64,000 bases of DNA. It comes from Betaproteobacteria bacterium (GTDB taxonomy: Bacteria; Pseudomonadota; Gammaproteobacteria; Burkholderiales; Casimicrobiaceae). The translations under genes were made by a program, and so were the position numbers. Below are positions 15,390-22,650 of this stretch, in pieces. The stretch spans positions 13,783 through 77,782 of the forward strand of contig JAAFJO010000009.1 in NCBI GenBank assembly GCA_013298145.1. The letters run 5' to 3'. The first letter of the stretch is position 1. Every line of letters starts with the position of its first letter. Below the pieces are notes generated by a model. That model saw only the letters and a program-made list of their open reading frames with translations. It was not told where the DNA came from and searched no databases.

Positions 15390-16649
15390 GTGTCCAACAC
15401 CCCAAACTACAACGCCCTCTTCGCTGACCGCATTGACGCATTGAAGCGTGAAGGGCGTTATCGTATTTTTGCAGAGCTGTCTCGCCCGCGCGGACAGTTT
15501 CCTCGCGTAGAGTGGCATGGCGGCGAGCAGATGCGCCAGGTGATCACGTGGTGCTCAAACGATTACTTGGGCATGGGTCACCACCCGGTGGTTCGCGATG
15601 CGATGCTTTCGGCGATCAATGACGGGGCGACAGGCGCGGGCGGCACTCGCAACATCGGCGGTACCAACGCGTACCACATTGAGTTGGAACGCCTCTTGGC
15701 CGCGCTTCACGATAAAGAATCAGCGCTCACCTTTACCTCGGGCTACAGTGCGAATTTGGCATCGCTTTCGGTGTTGGCATCGCTTCTGCCCAACACGGTC
15801 ATCGTCTCCGATTCCGATAATCACAATTCGATGATTGAAGGTATCCGTCGTTCTGGCGCCGAAAAAGTCATCTTCAAACATAACGATCCACGCGATCTCG
15901 AAGCCAAGCTCGCGAGTTTTGCGCCTGAGCGGCCGAAACTGGTGGTCTTCGAGAGCGTTTACTCGATGAGCGGAAATATCGCTCCGATTGGTGAGTTTGC
16001 TCAAATCGCCAAACAGTACGGCGCGATGACGTACCTTGATGAGGTTCACGCGGTTGGGATGTACGGTAACCGTGGCGGTGGCGTATCGCAAGAGCAAGGC
16101 GTCGCCGATCAGATCGACATCATTCAGGGCACGCTCGGTAAAGCATTCGGCATGCAAGGTGGCTATGTCACCGGCTCCGCCGCAATGGTCGATTGCATCC
16201 GCAGTTTTGGCGCATCGTTCATTTTCTCCACGTCGCTTGCGCCAGTGTTGTGTGCGGGCGCGATTGCGAGCGTGTCGCATTTGATGCGTTCGCAAGAAGA
16301 GCGTCGCCTCCAGCGCGAGCGGGTCGCCGAAGTGAAATCGAAGCTACTTGCGCGCGGGCTACCCGTGATACCAAACCCTTCACACATCGTGCCGGTGTTC
16401 GTGGGCGATCCGGTCAAAGTCAAAACCTTGACCGACCGCCTGATGCAAAACCACAACATTTATCTGCAACCGATCAACTATCCGACGGTTGCTCGCGGCA
16501 CCGAGCGCATTCGTATCGCGCCTGGCCCCTGCCACACGAGCGAAATGGTCGATCAATTGATTGACGCGCTGGTCACGGAGTGGGCGATTCTTGGATTGCC
16601 GAAAGAGATGAGCGCGAAAGCGGTGCTCGCGCCGTCTGCGGCGGGCTAG
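15390..16649 (+). CDS. hemA: 5-aminolevulinate synthase (Shemin pathway, PLP-dependent alpha-oxoamine synthase)
   Basis: GTG start with GGAGG 10 nt upstream. It aligns along the whole length with my memory of Rhodobacter ALAS: [40 protein letters not shown], the catalytic-lysine motif GTLGKAFG, and [19 protein letters not shown]. Confidence 0.9.
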
Positions 16650-17590
16650 GCTTCTCCAGACTCTAGCGCAATGCGTGCTGCATCCTCGTGCGCGGCGGAT
16701 TCAACATAGGTGAGCGAAACCTTAGCAAGACGTTCTCTCAATGTCGCCTCAATGATCGGGTGAAGCTTCGAGGCCCGTCCCGCCACGGCAACTGGTTTCA
16801 CACCAAACCGCGCGACCATCGCGTTTGCGAGCCGCGCAAGCTCAATCCCGGCCCCGCGCAAAATCTCACGCGAGATAGGGTCAGCGGCTGCGGTGTCGCG
16901 AACCGCAAGGGCGAGCATTCCAATTTCGCCTCGGTCCTTCGCGTAGAAAAAGGCGCGAGAGCGATCCCAATCGCTCCCGCCCAAGCGCTCAAACATGGCA
17001 ACAGCGAGTGCAGAATCCTTCCACGCGCCAGGCTGCTCGTCCTCATGCCGCCAAATGTGGCGAAGCGCCTCACGCGCCATCCAATAACCACCACCGCCGT
17101 CATCGAGCCCCACACCGCGCCCACCAGCGCGATGGAACGATCCCGAAGAGTCAACATATGCTGCGATTGAGCCAGTTCCCGCATAGACGATGTAGCCCTC
17201 GCCCGGCTTGAATGCGCCGCGATAAGCAACTTCGATATCGCTCATAATCGTTACGCGTCCGGCGGGGATTGCGAAGGCTTCTGCGATGAGTTTGGCAAGT
17301 TCGGGTGAATGACCATCAACGCCCGTGAAACCGCCAGCGATCATGAGGAACGCATCGGCAGGCGAGTGCGCAGCGACAGCAGCCGAGATCTCAGCAAACG
17401 TGGCGCGTAGCCGCTCTAGGCCGTGCGCCGTATGAAGCATGAGCCCGGAGAGGCCGCCCGCGGATCCTTCAGCAAGACGCGCCGAATCCCCCTCAAGCAG
17501 CATCCATCGGGTGGTGGTGCCGCCCGCGTCAAGGCCGAGCGCGATGCAACGCAATCTCTGTGAAGACGCTAATGAGAGCGCTTCGCTCAC
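16646..17590 (-). CDS. BadF/BadG/BcrA/BcrD-type ATPase; N-acetyl-sugar kinase (NagK-II / MurK-like)
   Basis: 314 aa with a GTG start that overlaps the upstream stop (GTGA). It has the phosphate-1 motif [12 protein letters not shown] and GTGSIA. It is the last gene of the amino-sugar operon. Confidence 0.75.
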
Positions 17591-19305
17591 GGCGCGAGAT
17601 CCTTCACGAAGCGATCACTTTCTCGGCCTGATCGATCCACGACCGAGACTGCGACCGCGCTTAACACGCCCTCGCTGGTCGCTCGTGGCACGGTCGTTTC
17701 ACTGGTGCCCGCGCTCGGTGCGCCCGCCACCGGCAACACGGCAAACTGCCAAGACGTGCCATAACGCAACCAGACTGCGAAGTTTCGAGGCTCAGCATCC
17801 GCTCGGAGCGATTTAGCCTCCAGAGAAACTATTCTTTTAAACGCTAGCCCAACGTTATTTGGCGCTGCATCTCTATTTTCTATTAGATCGACGCCCACAC
17901 TATTGGGACGTTCGCCCAAATTTATTCCGGGCGTATAAGAAATAGCTGGATTACGATAAAGCGCTGAGAGACTGGCGTCGATGCCGCGCCGCTTTTGCAT
18001 GATCGGGGCCATGCTGAAATGGATATGCCCCTGCGCAACGTCGCGCTTCGATCGGATCAGAGCGAGCTGGCCCTCGATTTCTTTCGGCTGCCAACCGCGT
18101 GGCGTCTCCTCGATCCGGCTGGTGTAGAGGCCAGGAAAAATATCCCGTTTCAAGGTGTTTTGAGCGTGCCAGTATTCGAGCAGCACTGGAAACGATTGTG
18201 GCGATTGGTCAATCGCCCAATAGAGTTGCGGTGCGAGGTAGTCAAGCCAACCACGTTGCAGCCAAAGCTCGACATCCGCATAAAGTTTGTCGTACTGCGA
18301 AAAGCCTTGAATGCCTGGTGGACGGCGATCAGGTCGGCCAATCCCAAATGGCGAAATGCCAAATCGAACCCACGGCTTCTCTGCTTTCACGCCGCGATAC
18401 ACCCGTTCGACGAAGCGGTTTACGTTGTCCCGCCGCCAGTCGGCGCGCGTGAGTTTGCCGCCGCCCGCCACATACGCTAGCCACGAGGGTTCATCCGGAA
18501 AATCGAGCTCACGCTCAGGACGCGAGGTCACCATGGGCGCAGCTGAATTGAGCGCATTCGCAACCGCGTTTTGCCCGGCTGCCGAAGGTTGTTGAACTGC
18601 GGCTGTTTCGACAACCGGGTATGGATAGAAGTAATCATCAAAGTGAACGCCATCGATGTCATACCGACGCAGCACATCCATGATCACGTTATGCGAATGC
18701 TCTTGCGCCGCACGATCACCCGGATCGAGCCACAAAAAACCACCGTAGCTTTTCACTGCGGCAGGTAGGCGCTTCGCGACATGATCGGCGGAAACGGGCG
18801 AGCTCGCCTTCGTATGCCGCGCGCGGTACGGGTTGAACCATGCATGCACCTCAATACCGCGAAGCCGCGCTTCATCAATCCAAAACTGCAGTGGGTCGTA
18901 GCCCGGTGCCTTGCCTTGCTCGCCTGTGAGCCATTCCGCCCAGGGCTCAAGCGCCGACGGATAGATCGCATCGGCGCCAGGGCGCACCTGCAAAAGCACG
19001 GCGTTCATGTTGAGGGCTTGCACGCGATTCAAGATCGCAATGACCTCGCTTTTTTGCAGCTCCGCGCTCAGCCCCGGTTTCGTTGGCCAATCGATGTTGG
19101 CGACAGTTGCGATCCAAACCGCGCGAAACTCCCGAGGCGTAGGCGGCGGACATCCCGATGAGCGATCCTCCAGCGGGCAAACGCGGAGCGAAGCGGGTTG
19201 CACCGTGATCGGCTCCATCGTTGAACACGACCCGAGAAACCCTAGGAGCGCGAGCAGCGTCCACGTTAGGGGCGTGAGACCCGCAAATCGGCCCGCACGC
19301 CTCAT
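17587..19305 (-). CDS. GHL10-family (DUF187, YddW/DigH-like) glycoside hydrolase lipoprotein
   Basis: The start is refined to ATG 19305, giving MRRAGRFAGLTPLTWTLLALLGFLGSCST (signal peptide plus a lipobox-like LGSC) and an ATGA overlap with the upstream stop. The TIM-barrel-like core FRAVWIATVANIDWP...GIEVHAWFNPY...GVHFDDYFYP is typical of the YddW family. Confidence 0.75.
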   Translation of the reverse strand: MRRAGRFAGLTPLTWTLLALLGFLGSCSTMEPITVQPASLRVCPLEDRSSGCPPPTPREFRAVWIATVANIDWPTKPGLSAELQKSEVIAILNRVQALNMNAVLLQVRPGADAIYPSALEPWAEWLTGEQGKAPGYDPLQFWIDEARLRGIEVHAWFNPYRARHTKASSPVSADHVAKRLPAAVKSYGGFLWLDPGDRAAQEHSHNVIMDVLRRYDIDGVHFDDYFYPYPVVETAAVQQPSAAGQNAVANALNSAAPMVTSRPERELDFPDEPSWLAYVAGGGKLTRADWRRDNVNRFVERVYRGVKAEKPWVRFGISPFGIGRPDRRPPGIQGFSQYDKLYADVELWLQRGWLDYLAPQLYWAIDQSPQSFPVLLEYWHAQNTLKRDIFPGLYTSRIEETPRGWQPKEIEGQLALIRSKRDVAQGHIHFSMAPIMQKRRGIDASLSALYRNPAISYTPGINLGERPNSVGVDLIENRDAAPNNVGLAFKRIVSLEAKSLRADAEPRNFAVWLRYGTSWQFAVLPVAGAPSAGTSETTVPRATSEGVLSAVAVSVVDRSGRESDRFVKDLAP

Positions 19306-20459
19306 ACTTTGAAAAACCATCGCTTCTTCCACATCAACCAAGCCACACCATACATCGCCGAAACGAACAATACTGCGTATAGAAGTGAGGCGAGCTTCGG
19401 CGAGAGCCCGATCATCTGAATTTGCCCAAAGATAAGCGCTTTAAGCGACTGGCTCACACCGGTTTCAGCCGTCAACTTGACTGCGCCCAATAGCTTTGTC
19501 ACCAAACTTGAAAACGCAAAGATGAAGAGCGCATTCATCCCGAAGATCGTCAGCGGCAAAAACCATTGTCGTGCGCGCTTGGTCACCTGCTCACGCTCGC
19601 AGGCATCGATCAGCCAATAAAACAGCGCAAACACCACGAGCGCCCAACCCGACATAAAAACGCTGTACGACACCGTCCACAGCGGCTTGTTGATTGGCAT
19701 CAGCACAACATCGAGCATCGCGCCCATCCAAACAAGTAACAAGCCGCAGAGCAGCATCCACACCGTCTTTTCGCTGCGCGCGATAGCAACCAAGAGCCAG
19801 CGCCCGGTGAGCGCGCCAAAAAGCAGCGTGCTCACCGCGGGCAATGTACTCCACACACCTTCGGGATCCCACGTTTTTGAGAACGCCCAAAGATGCCCCG
19901 AAAGAAGTGTTCTGTCGATCCACGCGCCGAAATCACGTCCCGGCTCCAAGCGTCCTGCCGCCACCAGCGCATCATCGCCCACCACAGAAACGGCGAGCAT
20001 TGGAACCGCGTAGATCACAAAAAACGCAATGACCGCAATGCACCACGCCCGCCATCCGAAATACACCACGAGCGGCGCAGCCATCACGATGCAAAGCGCG
20101 ATCCGCTGCAGAACGCCGGGAATACGCAAGGTCTCCAGCGAAAAATTCGGAATGAAATTTAGCGCGAGGCCGATGGCGAAAATGATGAGCGCCCGTTTCC
20201 AAAGCGAAAGCACGGCGCTCACGCGCTGCGAGTCATCAAGTGCTTTACGCGAAAGTGAAAACACCATCGAAACGCCGACGATGAAAAGAAAGAAGGGGAA
20301 TATCCAATCGGTAAACGTCCAGCCGTGCCACTTCGCGTGAAGGAGCTGTGAATAGGCATTGCTCCAATCGCCAGGGTTATTTACCAATACCATTGCGGCA
20401 ATGGTTGCCCCGCGAAATGCGTCAAGCGAGACCAGTCGATCATTGGCATGCGCGTTCAT
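19302..20459 (-). CDS. Heparan-alpha-glucosaminide N-acetyltransferase-like (DUF5009/DUF1624, NagX-like) polytopic membrane acyltransferase
   Basis: 385 aa with ATG start and about 10 TM helices. The signature N-terminus is RLVSLDAFRGATIAAMVLVNNPGDW...LLHAKWHGWTFTDWIFPFFLFIVGVS. Confidence 0.75.
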   Translation of the reverse strand: MNAHANDRLVSLDAFRGATIAAMVLVNNPGDWSNAYSQLLHAKWHGWTFTDWIFPFFLFIVGVSMVFSLSRKALDDSQRVSAVLSLWKRALIIFAIGLALNFIPNFSLETLRIPGVLQRIALCIVMAAPLVVYFGWRAWCIAVIAFFVIYAVPMLAVSVVGDDALVAAGRLEPGRDFGAWIDRTLLSGHLWAFSKTWDPEGVWSTLPAVSTLLFGALTGRWLLVAIARSEKTVWMLLCGLLLVWMGAMLDVVLMPINKPLWTVSYSVFMSGWALVVFALFYWLIDACEREQVTKRARQWFLPLTIFGMNALFIFAFSSLVTKLLGAVKLTAETGVSQSLKALIFGQIQMIGLSPKLASLLYAVLFVSAMYGVAWLMWKKRWFFKV

Positions 20460-21751
20460 GCTGAATCCGCCTTCGCTTGCTTCTTACCAAACGCCGGGTC
20501 AATCTTCACAAAGATCGCAATCAGCATCGACGGCAGCGTACAGATACAAACCCAGATGAAGAAGTTTGTGTATCCGAGCTGGGTTTGAATCCAACCGCTC
20601 ACCATCCCCGGCAACATCATGCCAAGCGCCATGAACCCGGTACAAAGCGCGTAATGCGCCGTCTTGTGGGGGCCATCGGCCACCATAATCATGAAAAGCA
20701 GATACGCGGCGAAACCGAATCCATAACCCAGCTGCTCGATCGCGATCGCGCTCGCTATTACAGACAAGCTAGTGGGCTGTAGCGCAGCAAGAAACACGTA
20801 GGCAAGATTCGGCACGTGAATCGCGAAGAGCATGGGCCAGAGCCAGAACTTAAGGCCCTTCCGCGAGATTGCATAGCCGCCTGCGATGCCGCCTAAGGTA
20901 AGCGCCAGAACGCCCACCGTGCCGTACACCCATCCCACTTGCGCTGTTGAAAGCGAAAGCCCGCCCGCGTTTACTTTATCTAGCAAGAACGGTGAGCCAA
21001 GTTTCACCAGTTGCGCTTCGGCCAGTCGATAGGTCAATAAAAACGACAGCACGAGCCAGATATCGGCACGCTTGAAAAACACGACGAACGTGCTTACAAA
21101 GTCTTTGACCAAATCCCCTTCGATCCGCACCGCTTGATCGGCGCTGGGCTTCGGCAACATGAAAAAATGGTACGCGCCTATGAGCGCAAACATCACGGCG
21201 AGCACGATAAACACAATTTGCCACGCCAGGATGACGTTGCCGGTTTGCTCAGTCAACATACCTGCGAGCACAACCAGGAGGCCCTGGCCCGCAATATTCG
21301 CGATGCGCCAGAAGACCGTGCGAACGCCTACGAACGCCGCTTGCTGATGCTGCTCAAGACCGAGCATGTAAAACCCATCGGCGGCAATGTCATGAGTGGC
21401 GGATGCAAACGCCATCAACCAAAAAACGGCGAGCGTGGCTTGAAAGAAAAATGGCGTCGGCAGCGTAAACGCGACAAACGCTAGCGCGACACCAACCGCG
21501 AACTGCAAAAGCACGATCCAGAATCGTTTGGTACGAAACATATCCACCAAGGGCGACCACAATGGTTTCACGACCCACGGCAAATACAACCAGCTCGTGT
21601 AGAGGGCAATTTCGGTATTTGAGAGATTCAAGTTTTTGTACATGATGACGGATAGCGTCATCACCACCACGTACGGAATGCCTTGCGCGAAATAGAGCGT
21701 CGGGATCCACGTCCACGGTGACAGGCTCTGCGCCTTGTCTTCTTTTCTCAT
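20456..21751 (-). CDS. AmpG-family MFS permease (muropeptide / GlcNAc-MurNAc importer-like)
   Basis: 431 aa. The AmpG-type N-terminus is WIPTLYFAQGIPYVVVMTLSVIMYKNLNLSNTEIALYTSWLYLPWVVKPLWSPLVD. It has 4-nt overlaps with both neighbours. Confidence 0.85.
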   Translation of the reverse strand: MRKEDKAQSLSPWTWIPTLYFAQGIPYVVVMTLSVIMYKNLNLSNTEIALYTSWLYLPWVVKPLWSPLVDMFRTKRFWIVLLQFAVGVALAFVAFTLPTPFFFQATLAVFWLMAFASATHDIAADGFYMLGLEQHQQAAFVGVRTVFWRIANIAGQGLLVVLAGMLTEQTGNVILAWQIVFIVLAVMFALIGAYHFFMLPKPSADQAVRIEGDLVKDFVSTFVVFFKRADIWLVLSFLLTYRLAEAQLVKLGSPFLLDKVNAGGLSLSTAQVGWVYGTVGVLALTLGGIAGGYAISRKGLKFWLWPMLFAIHVPNLAYVFLAALQPTSLSVIASAIAIEQLGYGFGFAAYLLFMIMVADGPHKTAHYALCTGFMALGMMLPGMVSGWIQTQLGYTNFFIWVCICTLPSMLIAIFVKIDPAFGKKQAKADSA

Positions 21752-22650
21752 TTGACCTCCGCGAGGGCCAAGCGAACGCTTCCGCCCACGCGATCCAGCA
21801 AGCGTCGCGCCGCTTCAAAGCCCAGAGAGCGCCGGATCATCACGATCGCAGTTTTGACATGAAAATTCGAGCTCTCGAGCGCAGCGATCGCGGTATCTTC
21901 ATCGACCCCAGTGGCGAGCATCGTGAGACTAACGCAGCGACGAATCAACTTTGCATTGGTCGGCTTCACGTCTACCATCAAGTTGCCGTACACCTTGTTA
22001 AGCCGCACCATCAACGCGCTGGAAAACGTGTTGAGTGCGATCTTTTGAGCACTACCCGCTTTCAACCGCGTGCTGCCGGAAATCACCTCAGAACCCGTAT
22101 CCAGCAAGATCGCGATTTGCGCAGCGGCGAGTAGCGGCGTACCTGGATTGTTCGCGATACCGACCGTCAAGGCACCGCGCTCGCTAGCCTTTTCGATCAC
22201 GCCGAGCGCGTAGGGCGTGGTGCCCGATGCGGCAATCGCGAGCACCACATCGTTTGCGCCCACCTGCGCCGCCTCTACATCGGCCGCGCCCTGTTCGCGG
22301 CTGTCCTCCGCCCCTTCAACGGCACGGTGGATCGCATTCGGACCGCCCGCAAGCAGCGCAATCGCGCGCTCGGGCTCCCAAGAAAATGTCGGCACTAGTT
22401 CAACACTGTCGAGCAGCCCAAGACGCCCCGAAGTTCCCGCGCCCGCATACACAAGGCGACCGCCGCCCAACATGCGCGGCACTGATGCGTCGACCGCCCG
22501 CGCGATGTCGGCGCTCGCCCGCACGACGGCGTTCACCGCGCTTTTTTGATCGATCACAAACGCATCCACCAAGCCGCGTGTGTCGTAGGTGTCGAGCTCG
22601 CGATGAGATGCGTTCGGTATTTCAGTTCGAAGAGTGTAGGCGGCGCTCAT
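21748..22650 (-). CDS. murQ: N-acetylmuramic acid 6-phosphate etherase
   Basis: 300 aa. It has a SIS domain with GAGTSGRLGLLDSVELVPTF and ASGTTPY, and a C-terminal MurQ-type helix bundle. Confidence 0.92.
   Translation of the reverse strand: MSAAYTLRTEIPNASHRELDTYDTRGLVDAFVIDQKSAVNAVVRASADIARAVDASVPRMLGGGRLVYAGAGTSGRLGLLDSVELVPTFSWEPERAIALLAGGPNAIHRAVEGAEDSREQGAADVEAAQVGANDVVLAIAASGTTPYALGVIEKASERGALTVGIANNPGTPLLAAAQIAILLDTGSEVISGSTRLKAGSAQKIALNTFSSALMVRLNKVYGNLMVDVKPTNAKLIRRCVSLTMLATGVDEDTAIAALESSNFHVKTAIVMIRRSLGFEAARRLLDRVGGSVRLALAEVK

What the first reader, a model, noticed from the sequence alone, without database searches (positions are those of the whole stretch)
19302..20459. HGSNAT-like transmembrane acetyltransferase embedded in the amino-sugar operon
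The product carries the N-terminal signature of the heparan-alpha-glucosaminide N-acetyltransferase / DUF5009 (NagX) family. The lysosomal member of that family transfers acetyl groups from cytosolic acetyl-CoA to a glucosamine on the other side of the membrane. It is translationally coupled on both sides, to the AmpG-like permease and to the GHL10 lipoprotein. One testable idea is that it re-N-acetylates de-N-acetylated (GlcN- or MurN-containing) glycan fragments in the periplasm. That would make them substrates for the hydrolase, the importer and the GH84-like enzyme. To my knowledge the bacterial NagX function has remained unresolved.
Basis: inference. Interest (0 to 1): 0.6.

Follow-up and report, generated by a model that had tools for sequence, protein, structure and literature searches.

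The report
HGSNAT-like membrane acetyltransferase in cell-wall-sugar operon
This gene encodes a bacterial copy of the catalytic core of the human lysosomal enzyme HGSNAT. It sits inside an operon for eating bacterial cell-wall sugars, where it most likely re-acetylates de-acetylated wall fragments outside the cytoplasm, although a relative has been published as a sugar importer.

Summary
**Observation:** confirmed. The ORF 19302-20459 lies on the minus strand and encodes 385 aa. It overlaps the AmpG-like gene upstream and the GHL10 lipoprotein gene downstream by ATGA.

**Homology:**
- The protein matches human HGSNAT by sequence (E 3e-19).
- A confident model (pLDDT 95.5) superposes on the whole HGSNAT catalytic membrane domain (Z 42.8, 2.2 Å over 344 residues).
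- All 11 HGSNAT residues for acetyl-CoA binding, gating, catalysis and sugar binding are kept.
- It scores below the NagX equivalog cut-off.
- In the tree it belongs neither to the NagX equivalog clade nor to the Tannerella MurT clade.

**Context:** its own clade is flanked by MurQ and GHL10 in all 19 related loci, as far as each contig reaches. These loci are peptidoglycan-salvage operons with amidases and LD-carboxypeptidase.

**Reading and odds:**
- 0.4: a periplasm-facing, acetyl-CoA-dependent N-acetyltransferase that repairs GlcN ends of wall fragments.
- 0.25: a MurT-like MurNAc importer.
- 0.2: a NagX-like acetyltransferase for free glucosamine.

the idea is plausible but untested. The statement that NagX function is unresolved is outdated (Price 2022).

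**Earlier notes:** this scan has noted the same gene arrangement in several other genomes.

The parts
19302..20459 (-). X: 385-aa HGSNAT/NagX/MurT-family polytopic membrane protein (P0001), equal to the complete HGSNAT catalytic transmembrane domain
20307..20381 (-). Codons of the predicted catalytic centre: N27 (20379-20381, oxyanion Asn, HGSNAT N286), H41 (20337-20339, HGSNAT H297), D51 (20307-20309, HGSNAT D307)
20456..21751 (-). AmpG-like MFS permease, 57% identical over its full length to Tannerella forsythia AmpG (a GlcNAc-MurNAc / GlcNAc-anhMurNAc importer). Its stop overlaps the X start (ATGA).
   Evidence: PMC7670621
17587..19305 (-). GHL10 lipoprotein (P0002), similar to the Cwp19 catalytic domain (a peptidoglycan lytic transglycosylase/muramidase). 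Its ATG overlaps the X stop (ATGA).
   Evidence: PMC6016235
16646..17590 (-). BadF/NagK-type sugar kinase, last gene of the operon. Its specificity is not assignable, and BLASTP finds no similarity to TfMurK.
21748..22650 (-). MurQ, MurNAc-6-phosphate etherase
   Evidence: NF003915, 354 bits, over cut-off
22657..23703 (-). NagB-II-type (SIS) glucosamine-6-phosphate deaminase
23700..24836 (-). NagA, GlcNAc-6-phosphate deacetylase
   Evidence: TIGR00221, 252 bits, over cut-off
24833..25606 (-). GntR/UTRA regulator
25651..26724 (-). GH84-like beta-N-acetylglucosaminidase with no signal peptide, so probably cytoplasmic. First gene of the operon.
27177..28637 (+). Sodium:solute symporter, divergent from the operon. 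A possible monosaccharide importer, but its membership of the system is not shown.

Best explanation
X is a periplasm-facing, acetyl-CoA-dependent transmembrane N-acetyltransferase that serves a peptidoglycan-sugar salvage operon.

**Proposed mechanism, by analogy with HGSNAT:**
1. Cytoplasmic acetyl-CoA enters a central pore. It is held by R8, R16 and R89 and gated by M23, F54 and F57.
2. Its acetyl group reaches the periplasmic mouth. There the H41-D51 dyad deprotonates the 2-amino group of a glucosamine held by R112 and E200, and N27 stabilises the oxyanion.
3. The likely acceptor is GlcN at the non-reducing end of wall fragments (GlcN-MurNAc units). A muramidase or lytic transglycosylase such as the co-translated GHL10 lipoprotein produces exactly this kind of end.
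4. Re-acetylation turns these fragments into GlcNAc-MurNAc. The TfAmpG-type permease can import that form, and the cytoplasmic GH84-like enzyme, the kinase, MurQ, NagA and NagB-II can then degrade it.

**Shown here:** the homology, the fold, residue conservation, gene coupling, the conserved synteny and the peptidoglycan nature of the operon.

**Inferred:** the activity, the topology, the acceptor and the order of steps.
For: **Fold and sequence**
- The sequence matches human HGSNAT at E 3e-19.
- The AF2 model has pLDDT 95.5 and pTM 0.93.
- The model superposes on HGSNAT residues 265-663 with Z 42.8 and rmsd 2.2 Å over 344 residues. The next best match is the acyl-CoA acyltransferase GWT1 at Z 21. 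Transporter folds score Z 5 or less, or TM about 0.2.

**Functional residues**
- All 11 functional residues defined in the HGSNAT structures (PMC11199644) are present.
- They are invariant in all 15 clade members examined and invariant or at least 90% conserved in a 93-sequence alignment.

**Family precedent**
- HGSNAT is biochemically an N-acetyltransferase that does not move its sugar across the membrane.
- NagX is genetically tied to GlcN to GlcNAc conversion in five bacteria.

**Context**
- MurQ-[AmpG]-X-GHL10-kinase is conserved in 13 of 13 same-genus loci, one locus of another family and 5 of 5 metagenome loci at 51% identity or more.
- Related loci add Amidase_2, an LD-carboxypeptidase, an M14 peptidase and a TonB receptor.
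- GHL10 matches the peptidoglycan-cleaving Cwp19 at E 7e-72.
- The AmpG is 57% identical to the disaccharide importer TfAmpG.

**Other candidate importers**
- Every locus variant has another candidate importer. This is the AmpG-like MFS protein, or a Gate-domain (PF07670) membrane protein in 7 of 7 AmpG-less loci with upstream sequence. The window also has an SSF symporter.

**Substrate availability**
- GlcN-MurNAc units are real products of denuded glycan strands (preprint 10.1101/2025.02.18.638797).
Against: - No activity was measured for this clade.
- TfMurT is a homologue (31% identity, E 3e-48) that keeps the same 11 residues. It was reported to restore growth on MurNAc to an E. coli murP mutant when co-expressed with TfMurK (summarised in PMC5790795). 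An extracytoplasmic acetyltransferase does not explain that result.
- The conserved core X + periplasmic muramidase-type enzyme + kinase + MurQ mirrors Tannerella MurT + NamZ1 + MurK + MurQ. By analogy, X could be the importer.
- The own genome shows no SddA-type (PF04748) wall deacetylase. Any GlcN-bearing substrate would therefore have to come from other organisms or from the two PF01522 proteins.
- No residue pattern separating peptidoglycan-linked from chitin- or GlcN-linked members was found.
Confidence: 0.4

Rival explanations
1. X is a MurT-like inner-membrane importer of free MurNAc (or anhMurNAc). The GHL10 enzyme and other periplasmic enzymes release the sugar, X brings it in, the BadF-type kinase phosphorylates it, and MurQ converts it to GlcNAc-6-P.
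For: - TfMurT is a full-length homologue in a murT-murK-murQ operon next to ampG and the exo-muramidase gene namZ1.
- It is reported to allow growth of E. coli murP mutants on MurNAc only together with TfMurK.
- The strictly conserved neighbours of X are MurQ, a periplasmic muramidase-type enzyme and a sugar kinase.
- In AmpG-less loci X is the only polytopic membrane protein inside the operon itself.
Against: - The fold belongs to acyl-CoA-dependent transmembrane acyltransferases, not to any known transporter.
- HGSNAT does not translocate its sugar.
- A plain permease gives no reason to keep the three cytoplasmic CoA-phosphate arginines, the oxyanion Asn and the His-Asp dyad, yet all are invariant.
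- In the tree X is not sister to TfMurT. TfMurT groups with proteins from chitin/chitosan loci of the form TBDR-X-GH9-MFS-GH20.
- Other candidate importers accompany every locus type.
- The kinase is not similar to TfMurK.
Confidence: 0.25
2. X is a NagX-type enzyme acting on free glucosamine. It acetylates periplasmic GlcN to GlcNAc. The GlcNAc is then imported, phosphorylated by the BadF-type kinase and processed by NagA and NagB-II. The link with MurQ and GHL10 only reflects a shared amino-sugar regulon.
For: - The chemistry and residues are the same as in the best explanation.
- The only NCBIfam hit is NagX.
- Price et al. 2022 show that NagX, NagA, NagK and NagP are needed for growth on GlcN.
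- NagA, NagB-II and a NagK-like kinase are in the same operon.
- X is the only family member in this genome.
Against: - The score of 147 bits is far below the 480-bit equivalog cut-off.
- The clade is separate from the NagX equivalogs. Those equivalogs sit by NagK, NagA and NagB without MurQ or GHL10.
- In the X clade the tight, overlapping neighbours are MurQ, AmpG and GHL10, not NagA or NagB.
- Hexosaminidases that rely on the acetamido group would not release free GlcN from walls (established GH84/GH20 mechanism, from my own knowledge).
Confidence: 0.2
3. X has some other role: a different acyl donor or acceptor (for example O-acylation, or another periplasmic amine), or a dual enzyme-channel function.
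For: - Many family members at 35-48% identity lie in contexts with no amino-sugar genes.
- The wider clan includes O-acyltransferases. PF01757 is co-annotated on some homologues.
- The published enzyme and transporter assignments within one family are unreconciled.
Against: - The sugar-binding pair R112 and E200 and the amine-directed His-Asp dyad are kept exactly as in HGSNAT.
- The clade's context is uniformly peptidoglycan-sugar catabolism.
Confidence: 0.15

Closest known systems
[quoted passage not shown]
   Same: - The whole catalytic transmembrane domain superposes (Z 42.8, 2.2 Å, 344 residues, 25% identity).
- All 11 residues are conserved: the CoA-binding arginines, the gating Met and Phe residues, the oxyanion Asn, the His-Asp dyad and the two sugar-binding residues.
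- The pathway logic is the same: acetylate a terminal GlcN so that an N-acetyl-dependent glycosidase can act.
   Different: - X lacks the luminal N-terminal domain and TM1 (the model covers HGSNAT 265-663 only).
- It is bacterial and faces the periplasm, not an acidic lysosome.
- The presumed acceptor is a peptidoglycan fragment, not heparan sulfate.
NagX of Shewanella (SO_3504 / Shewana3_3111; NCBIfam NF046061; Price et al. 2022, PMC9007349)
   Same: - Same family and size.
- Proposed periplasmic GlcN N-acetylation using cytoplasmic acetyl-CoA.
- Sits with NagA, NagB and a BadF-type kinase.
   Different: - X scores 147 bits against a 480-bit cut-off, with about 30-32% identity.
- It forms a separate, well-supported clade.
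- NagX equivalogs have Thr in place of the oxyanion Asn and Leu or Phe in place of the gate Met, whereas X keeps the HGSNAT residues.
- NagX loci lack MurQ and GHL10.
TfMurT (Tanf_08375) of the Tannerella forsythia ampG-namZ1-murT-murK-murQ salvage operon
   Same: - Full-length homologue (31% identity, E 3e-48) with the same 11 residues.
- The operon is functionally parallel: a disaccharide permease (57% identical to the window's AmpG), a periplasmic muramidase-type enzyme, a sugar kinase and MurQ.
   Different: - TfMurT is published as a MurNAc transporter.
- It is not sister to X in the tree.
- The glycosidase partner is NamZ1 (GH171) rather than GHL10.
- The kinases are unrelated at BLASTP level.
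- The gene order differs.
GWT1 (GPI inositol acyltransferase; PDB 8xij, 8xik)
   Same: It is the second-best structural match (Z about 21). It is a transmembrane acyl-CoA-dependent acyltransferase that acts on a GlcN-containing acceptor on the far side of the membrane.
   Different: - Only 15-16% identity.
- It uses a long-chain acyl donor and performs O-acylation of inositol.
- It is eukaryotic and located in the ER.

Membership tests
HGSNAT / DUF1624 transmembrane acetyltransferase superfamily | Sequence homology to the HGSNAT catalytic domain | tested here: met
   phmmer against PDB gives E 3e-19 in two stretches. Close homologues carry PF07786. Pfam gave no hit on P0001 itself.
HGSNAT / DUF1624 transmembrane acetyltransferase superfamily | Fold of the 10-helix catalytic transmembrane domain with a central pore | tested here: met
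   AF2 model pLDDT 95.5. Foldseek TM 0.75-0.79, E 1e-14. VIA-align Z 42.8, rmsd 2.2 Å, 344 residues aligned.
HGSNAT / DUF1624 transmembrane acetyltransferase superfamily | Catalytic His-Asp dyad and oxyanion Asn (H297, D307, N286) | tested here: met
   H41, D51 and N27 are present and invariant in the clade.
HGSNAT / DUF1624 transmembrane acetyltransferase superfamily | Acetyl-CoA-binding and gating residues (R267, R275, R345, M282, F310, F313) and sugar-binding residues (R372, E499) | tested here: met
   R8, R16, R89, M23, F54, F57, R112 and E200 are present.
HGSNAT / DUF1624 transmembrane acetyltransferase superfamily | Acetyl-CoA-dependent N-acetylation of a glucosamine on the far side of the membrane | not testable with these tools
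   Needs a biochemical assay.
NagX (NF046061 equivalog, Shewanella type) | Score above the curated equivalog cut-off (480 bits) | tested here: not met
   147 bits; 148.7 bits in the genome search.
NagX (NF046061 equivalog, Shewanella type) | Placement inside the clade of equivalogs | tested here: not met
   The five equivalogs form their own clade (SH-aLRT 100). X lies in a different clade (99).
NagX (NF046061 equivalog, Shewanella type) | Required for growth on glucosamine but not on GlcNAc | not testable with these tools
   This is a genetic phenotype (Price 2022).
MurT (Tannerella-type MurNAc uptake protein) | Orthology with TfMurT (same clade) | tested here: inconclusive
   31% identity over the full length. 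In the tree TfMurT groups with other proteins, but the backbone is weakly supported and only a quick search was run.
MurT (Tannerella-type MurNAc uptake protein) | Operon partnership with a sugar kinase and MurQ | tested here: met
   MurQ lies upstream and a BadF-type kinase two genes downstream in the window and in all same-genus loci. The kinase is not a TfMurK orthologue.
MurT (Tannerella-type MurNAc uptake protein) | Confers MurNAc uptake | not testable with these tools
   Needs complementation or uptake assays. The original paper (PMC5075041) is not held.

The most novel reading that the evidence does not exclude
The MurQ/GHL10-linked clade is a peptidoglycan 're-N-acetylase'. Such an enzyme would reverse wall N-deacetylation outside the cytoplasm, using cytoplasmic acetyl-CoA, so that lysozyme-resistant GlcN-containing walls of other bacteria become digestible and importable. 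This would be a bacterial counterpart of the lysosomal HGSNAT step. As a corollary, 'MurT' proteins, which keep the same active site, would be enzymes or enzyme-channels rather than plain permeases.
Probability: 0.35. Interest if true: 0.7.

Novelty: new variant of a known kind. Interest (0 to 1): 0.5.

Why it matters
**Why the activity would matter.** N-deacetylation of peptidoglycan is a widespread defence against lysozyme-type enzymes. No enzyme is known that undoes it during wall scavenging or recycling.

**The open conflict.** One membrane-protein family currently carries two incompatible functional labels. One is acetyltransferase (HGSNAT by biochemistry, NagX by genetics). The other is MurNAc transporter (TfMurT).

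**What this locus offers.** This clade has an intact HGSNAT active site and is tightly coupled to a wall-cutting lipoprotein and a disaccharide permease. It therefore gives a clean system to decide which label is right, using ordinary genetics and an acetyl-CoA transfer assay. The answer would also change how MurNAc and peptidoglycan salvage operons are annotated in Bacteroidota and Proteobacteria.

Tried and rejected
1. **Pfam on P0001.** NCBIfam, PDB and structure comparisons carry the assignment instead.
2. **The look-up of encoding contigs.** Contexts were obtained from the genome search, the fetch from genomes and one metagenome scan.
3. **Apparent X::GHL10 fusion (P0193, 793 aa).** Its alignments alternate between good matches and Arg-rich out-of-frame stretches. 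I read it as a frameshifted gene call. It shows adjacency only, not a fusion.
4. **Residues that separate MurQ-linked from GlcN/chitin-linked members.** R183 and K340 looked specific in 44 sequences. In 237 sequences both are common regardless of context, so the idea was dropped.
5. **Self-substrate idea.** No SddA-type (PF04748) denuded-strand deacetylase was found in this 99.3%-complete genome.
6. **TonB receptor at 28842-31151.** It is not part of this system, because a TPP riboswitch precedes it.
7. **Original TfMurT paper (PMC5075041).** It is not held. Its result is quoted only through later papers.
8. **Kinase specificity.** It could not be assigned. Only weak NagK, hexokinase and MurK-type PDB matches were found, and BLASTP shows no similarity to TfMurK.
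Full report
**1. Observation**

- The coordinates 19302-20459 hold one ORF on the minus strand. It has an ATG start and encodes 385 aa, stored as P0001.
- It is the seventh of nine minus-strand genes:
  - GH84-like hexosaminidase (25651-26724)
  - GntR/UTRA regulator (24833-25606)
  - NagA (23700-24836)
  - NagB-II (22657-23703)
  - MurQ (21748-22650)
  - AmpG-like MFS permease (20456-21751)
  - X (19302-20459)
  - GHL10 lipoprotein (17587-19305)
  - BadF/NagK-type kinase (16646-17590)
- Six of the eight junctions are 4-nt overlaps, including both junctions of X (ATGA at 20459-20456 and at 19305-19302).
- Read from ATG 19305, the GHL10 product begins with a lipoprotein-type signal.
The strand was not stated in the finding.

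**2. What the protein is**

- NCBIfam gives a single hit, NagX_SO_3504, at E 7.5e-43 and 147 bits. This is far below the 480-bit equivalog cut-off.
- Pfam reports nothing for this sequence, although relatives carry PF07786 or PF16401.
- Against PDB sequences the only real hits are human HGSNAT entries (E 3e-19).
- An AlphaFold2 model built on 93 homologues is very confident (pLDDT 95.5, pTM 0.93).
- The model superposes on HGSNAT residues 265-663, the entire catalytic membrane domain. The match has Z 42.8 and rmsd 2.2 Å over 344 residues.
- The acyl-CoA acyltransferase GWT1 comes next (Z about 21). Every transporter fold scores Z 5 or less.
- The HGSNAT structure paper (PMC11199644) defines 11 functional residues. 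All have equivalents in X:

| HGSNAT | X | Role |
|---|---|---|
| R267, R275, R345 | R8, R16, R89 | acetyl-CoA binding |
| M282, F310, F313 | M23, F54, F57 | pore gate |
| N286 | N27 | oxyanion |
| H297-D307 | H41-D51 | catalytic dyad |
| R372, E499 | R112, E200 | GlcN 6-OH and 3-OH binding |

- These residues are invariant in all 15 members of X's clade and in TfMurT.
- The Shewanella-type NagX equivalogs carry Thr at the Asn position and Leu or Phe at the Met position.
- The distribution of Lys and Arg in the loops fits an N-in/C-in topology. The CoA site would then be cytoplasmic and H41, R112 and E200 periplasmic. This is my reading of the sequence and model, not a computed result.

**3. 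Family and relatives**

- The family is very large. There are 7201 clusters at 50% identity with E 1e-3 or better, and more than 8000 hits in the word-indexed search.
- The nearest named relative is from a Casimicrobium MAG (74% identity).
- X is single-copy in its 4.13-Mb genome.
- It was found in 20 of 24 sampled genomes of the same genus and in none of 16 other families of the order.
- Any family member was found in only 29 of 401 sampled Pseudomonadota genomes.
- I fetched the Tannerella forsythia locus through a published primer that lies inside murT. TfMurT is 31% identical to X over its full length (E 3e-48).
- A maximum-likelihood tree of 73 sequences was built with a quick search, and its backbone is weak. 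It places X in a well-supported clade (SH-aLRT 99). This clade is distinct from the NagX equivalogs (100) and from TfMurT.
- TfMurT groups with proteobacterial proteins from chitin/chitosan loci of the form TBDR-X-GH9-MFS-GH20.

**4. Context**

- In 13 of 13 same-genus loci and in one locus from another family, X is flanked by MurQ upstream and by GHL10 downstream (then the kinase, except in that one locus, where tblastn found none).
- The AmpG-like gene is present only in a subset of these loci.
- All five metagenome loci with at least 51% identity show MurQ upstream. GHL10 follows downstream wherever the contig extends that far.
- Below about 48% identity the linkage mostly disappears.
- Related loci extend the operon with a MurNAc-L-Ala amidase, a PF00144 peptidase-like protein, an LD-carboxypeptidase, an M14 peptidase and a TonB receptor. 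These are therefore peptidoglycan-salvage loci, not chitin loci.
- GHL10 matches the catalytic domain of C. difficile Cwp19 at E 7e-72. Cwp19 is a demonstrated peptidoglycan lytic transglycosylase/muramidase (PMC6016235).
- The AmpG-like permease is 57% identical to T. forsythia AmpG, which imports GlcNAc-MurNAc and GlcNAc-anhMurNAc (PMC7670621).
- A canonical AmpG (534 bits) and AnmK lie elsewhere in the genome. The operon is therefore an accessory salvage route.
- The GH84-like protein has no signal peptide. It co-varies with AmpG, which fits import of a disaccharide followed by cytoplasmic cleavage.
- AmpG-less loci carry a divergent Gate-domain (PF07670) membrane protein in 7 of 7 cases where upstream sequence is available.
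- An independent family member (37% identity) lies in another full wall-sugar locus. That locus has a NamZ-like gene, a fused BadF-kinase::MurQ and an SSF symporter on one strand. On the other strand are a GH3 gene, X, a D-lactate-dehydrogenase-like gene and an Amidase_2 gene.
- The TonB receptor next to the window's operon belongs to a TPP-riboswitch unit.

**5. How it most likely works**

- I favour a 'cut, fix, import' unit in the periplasm.
- First, the GHL10 lipoprotein cleaves glycan strands. This leaves units with GlcN(Ac) at the non-reducing end.
- Second, X uses cytoplasmic acetyl-CoA to N-acetylate those ends that are de-acetylated.
- Third, the TfAmpG-type permease imports GlcNAc-MurNAc.
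- In the cytoplasm the GH84-like enzyme, the kinase, MurQ, NagA and NagB-II then complete catabolism. GH84 catalysis depends on the acetamido group (established mechanism, from my own knowledge).
- GlcN-MurNAc units exist in nature. They arise from PgdA-type deacetylation in Gram-positive bacteria and from SddA action on denuded strands in E. coli.
- The chemistry is inferred from homology, and the acceptor and order of steps from context. Nothing was assayed.
- I give this reading 0.4.
- The same chemistry on free GlcN (NagX-like) gets 0.2.
- A MurT-like MurNAc permease gets 0.25. Its support is the published E. coli murP complementation by TfMurT plus TfMurK and the parallel between X-GHL10-kinase-MurQ and MurT-NamZ1-MurK-MurQ.
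- Other roles get 0.15.
- Four points argue against a plain permease:
  - The fold is that of an acyltransferase.
  - The acetyl-CoA site is invariant.
  - HGSNAT does not move its sugar.
  - Another candidate importer is present in each locus type.

**6. Comparison with what is known, and novelty**

- X is a member of the HGSNAT/DUF1624 superfamily by every sequence and structure criterion tested.
- It is not a NagX equivalog. Orthology with TfMurT is not supported, but the tree backbone is too weak to exclude it.
- The family, the transacetylase proposal (PMC9007349) and the MurT assignment are all published.
- In the held literature I found no description of this MurQ/GHL10-linked clade. 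I also found no proposal of re-N-acetylation of wall fragments, and no note that TfMurT keeps the full HGSNAT active site. Only Price et al. link HGSNAT and MurNAc.
- I class it as a new variant of a known kind.
- Notes from this scan show the same ampG-X-GHL10 or murQ-linked arrangement in several other genomes. Two follow-ups reached a similar 'enzyme or transporter' conclusion. I read them after my own analysis, and they are not independent evidence.

**7. Verdict**

- The gene is real, intact and conserved.
- Its biochemical role is a well-posed and testable open question of moderate interest (0.5).

Noticed in passing
window 20456-21751 (-): The operon's AmpG-like permease is 57% identical over its full length to Tannerella forsythia AmpG (Bacteroidota). 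The genome also has a canonical proteobacterial AmpG (534 bits) on another contig. The gene is present in only some same-genus loci, which suggests a laterally acquired second permease type.
   Followed up: partly
L049:1126-2364 (-) and equivalents in L051, L052, L054-L057: In AmpG-less versions of the operon, a 412-aa membrane protein with two Gate (PF07670) domains lies divergently upstream of nagA in 7 of 7 loci with sequence there. It may be an alternative importer. It has no NCBIfam name.
   Followed up: partly
L063:3590-5437 (-) and L063:10182-13067 (+): Another proteobacterial wall-sugar locus encodes a single 615-aa protein that fuses a BadF-type kinase to MurQ. It also has a 961-aa FAD/Fe-S D-lactate-dehydrogenase-like protein right after the HGSNAT-like gene. 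D-lactate is the MurQ by-product.
   Followed up: no
L058-L062 (NagX equivalog loci): The Shewanella-type NagX equivalogs have Thr where HGSNAT and X have the oxyanion Asn (N286/N27), and Leu or Phe at the gate Met. The genetically supported acetyltransferases are therefore less HGSNAT-like at the active site than X or TfMurT.
   Followed up: partly
L014:5483-6655 (+) (T. forsythia murT): PMC5790795 describes TfMurT in one place as a member of the sodium symporter superfamily and in another as a major facilitator superfamily protein. The sequence is clearly HGSNAT/NagX-like and keeps all 11 HGSNAT functional residues.
   Followed up: yes
window 28771-28869 (+): A TPP riboswitch (RF00059, 65.8 bits) lies directly before the TonB-dependent receptor gene 28842-31151. 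That receptor therefore belongs to a thiamine unit, not to the wall-sugar operon.
   Followed up: partly
window 27177-28637 (+): A sodium:solute symporter is transcribed divergently from the operon across a 452-bp spacer. A similar symporter sits inside the independent wall-sugar locus L063. It is a possible MurNAc or GlcNAc importer, but its specificity is unknown.
   Followed up: partly
P0193 (metagenome protein, 793 aa): This looks like an HGSNAT-like::GHL10 fusion, but the alignments show alternating in-frame and out-of-frame stretches. It is most likely a frameshifted assembly of two adjacent genes.
   Followed up: yes
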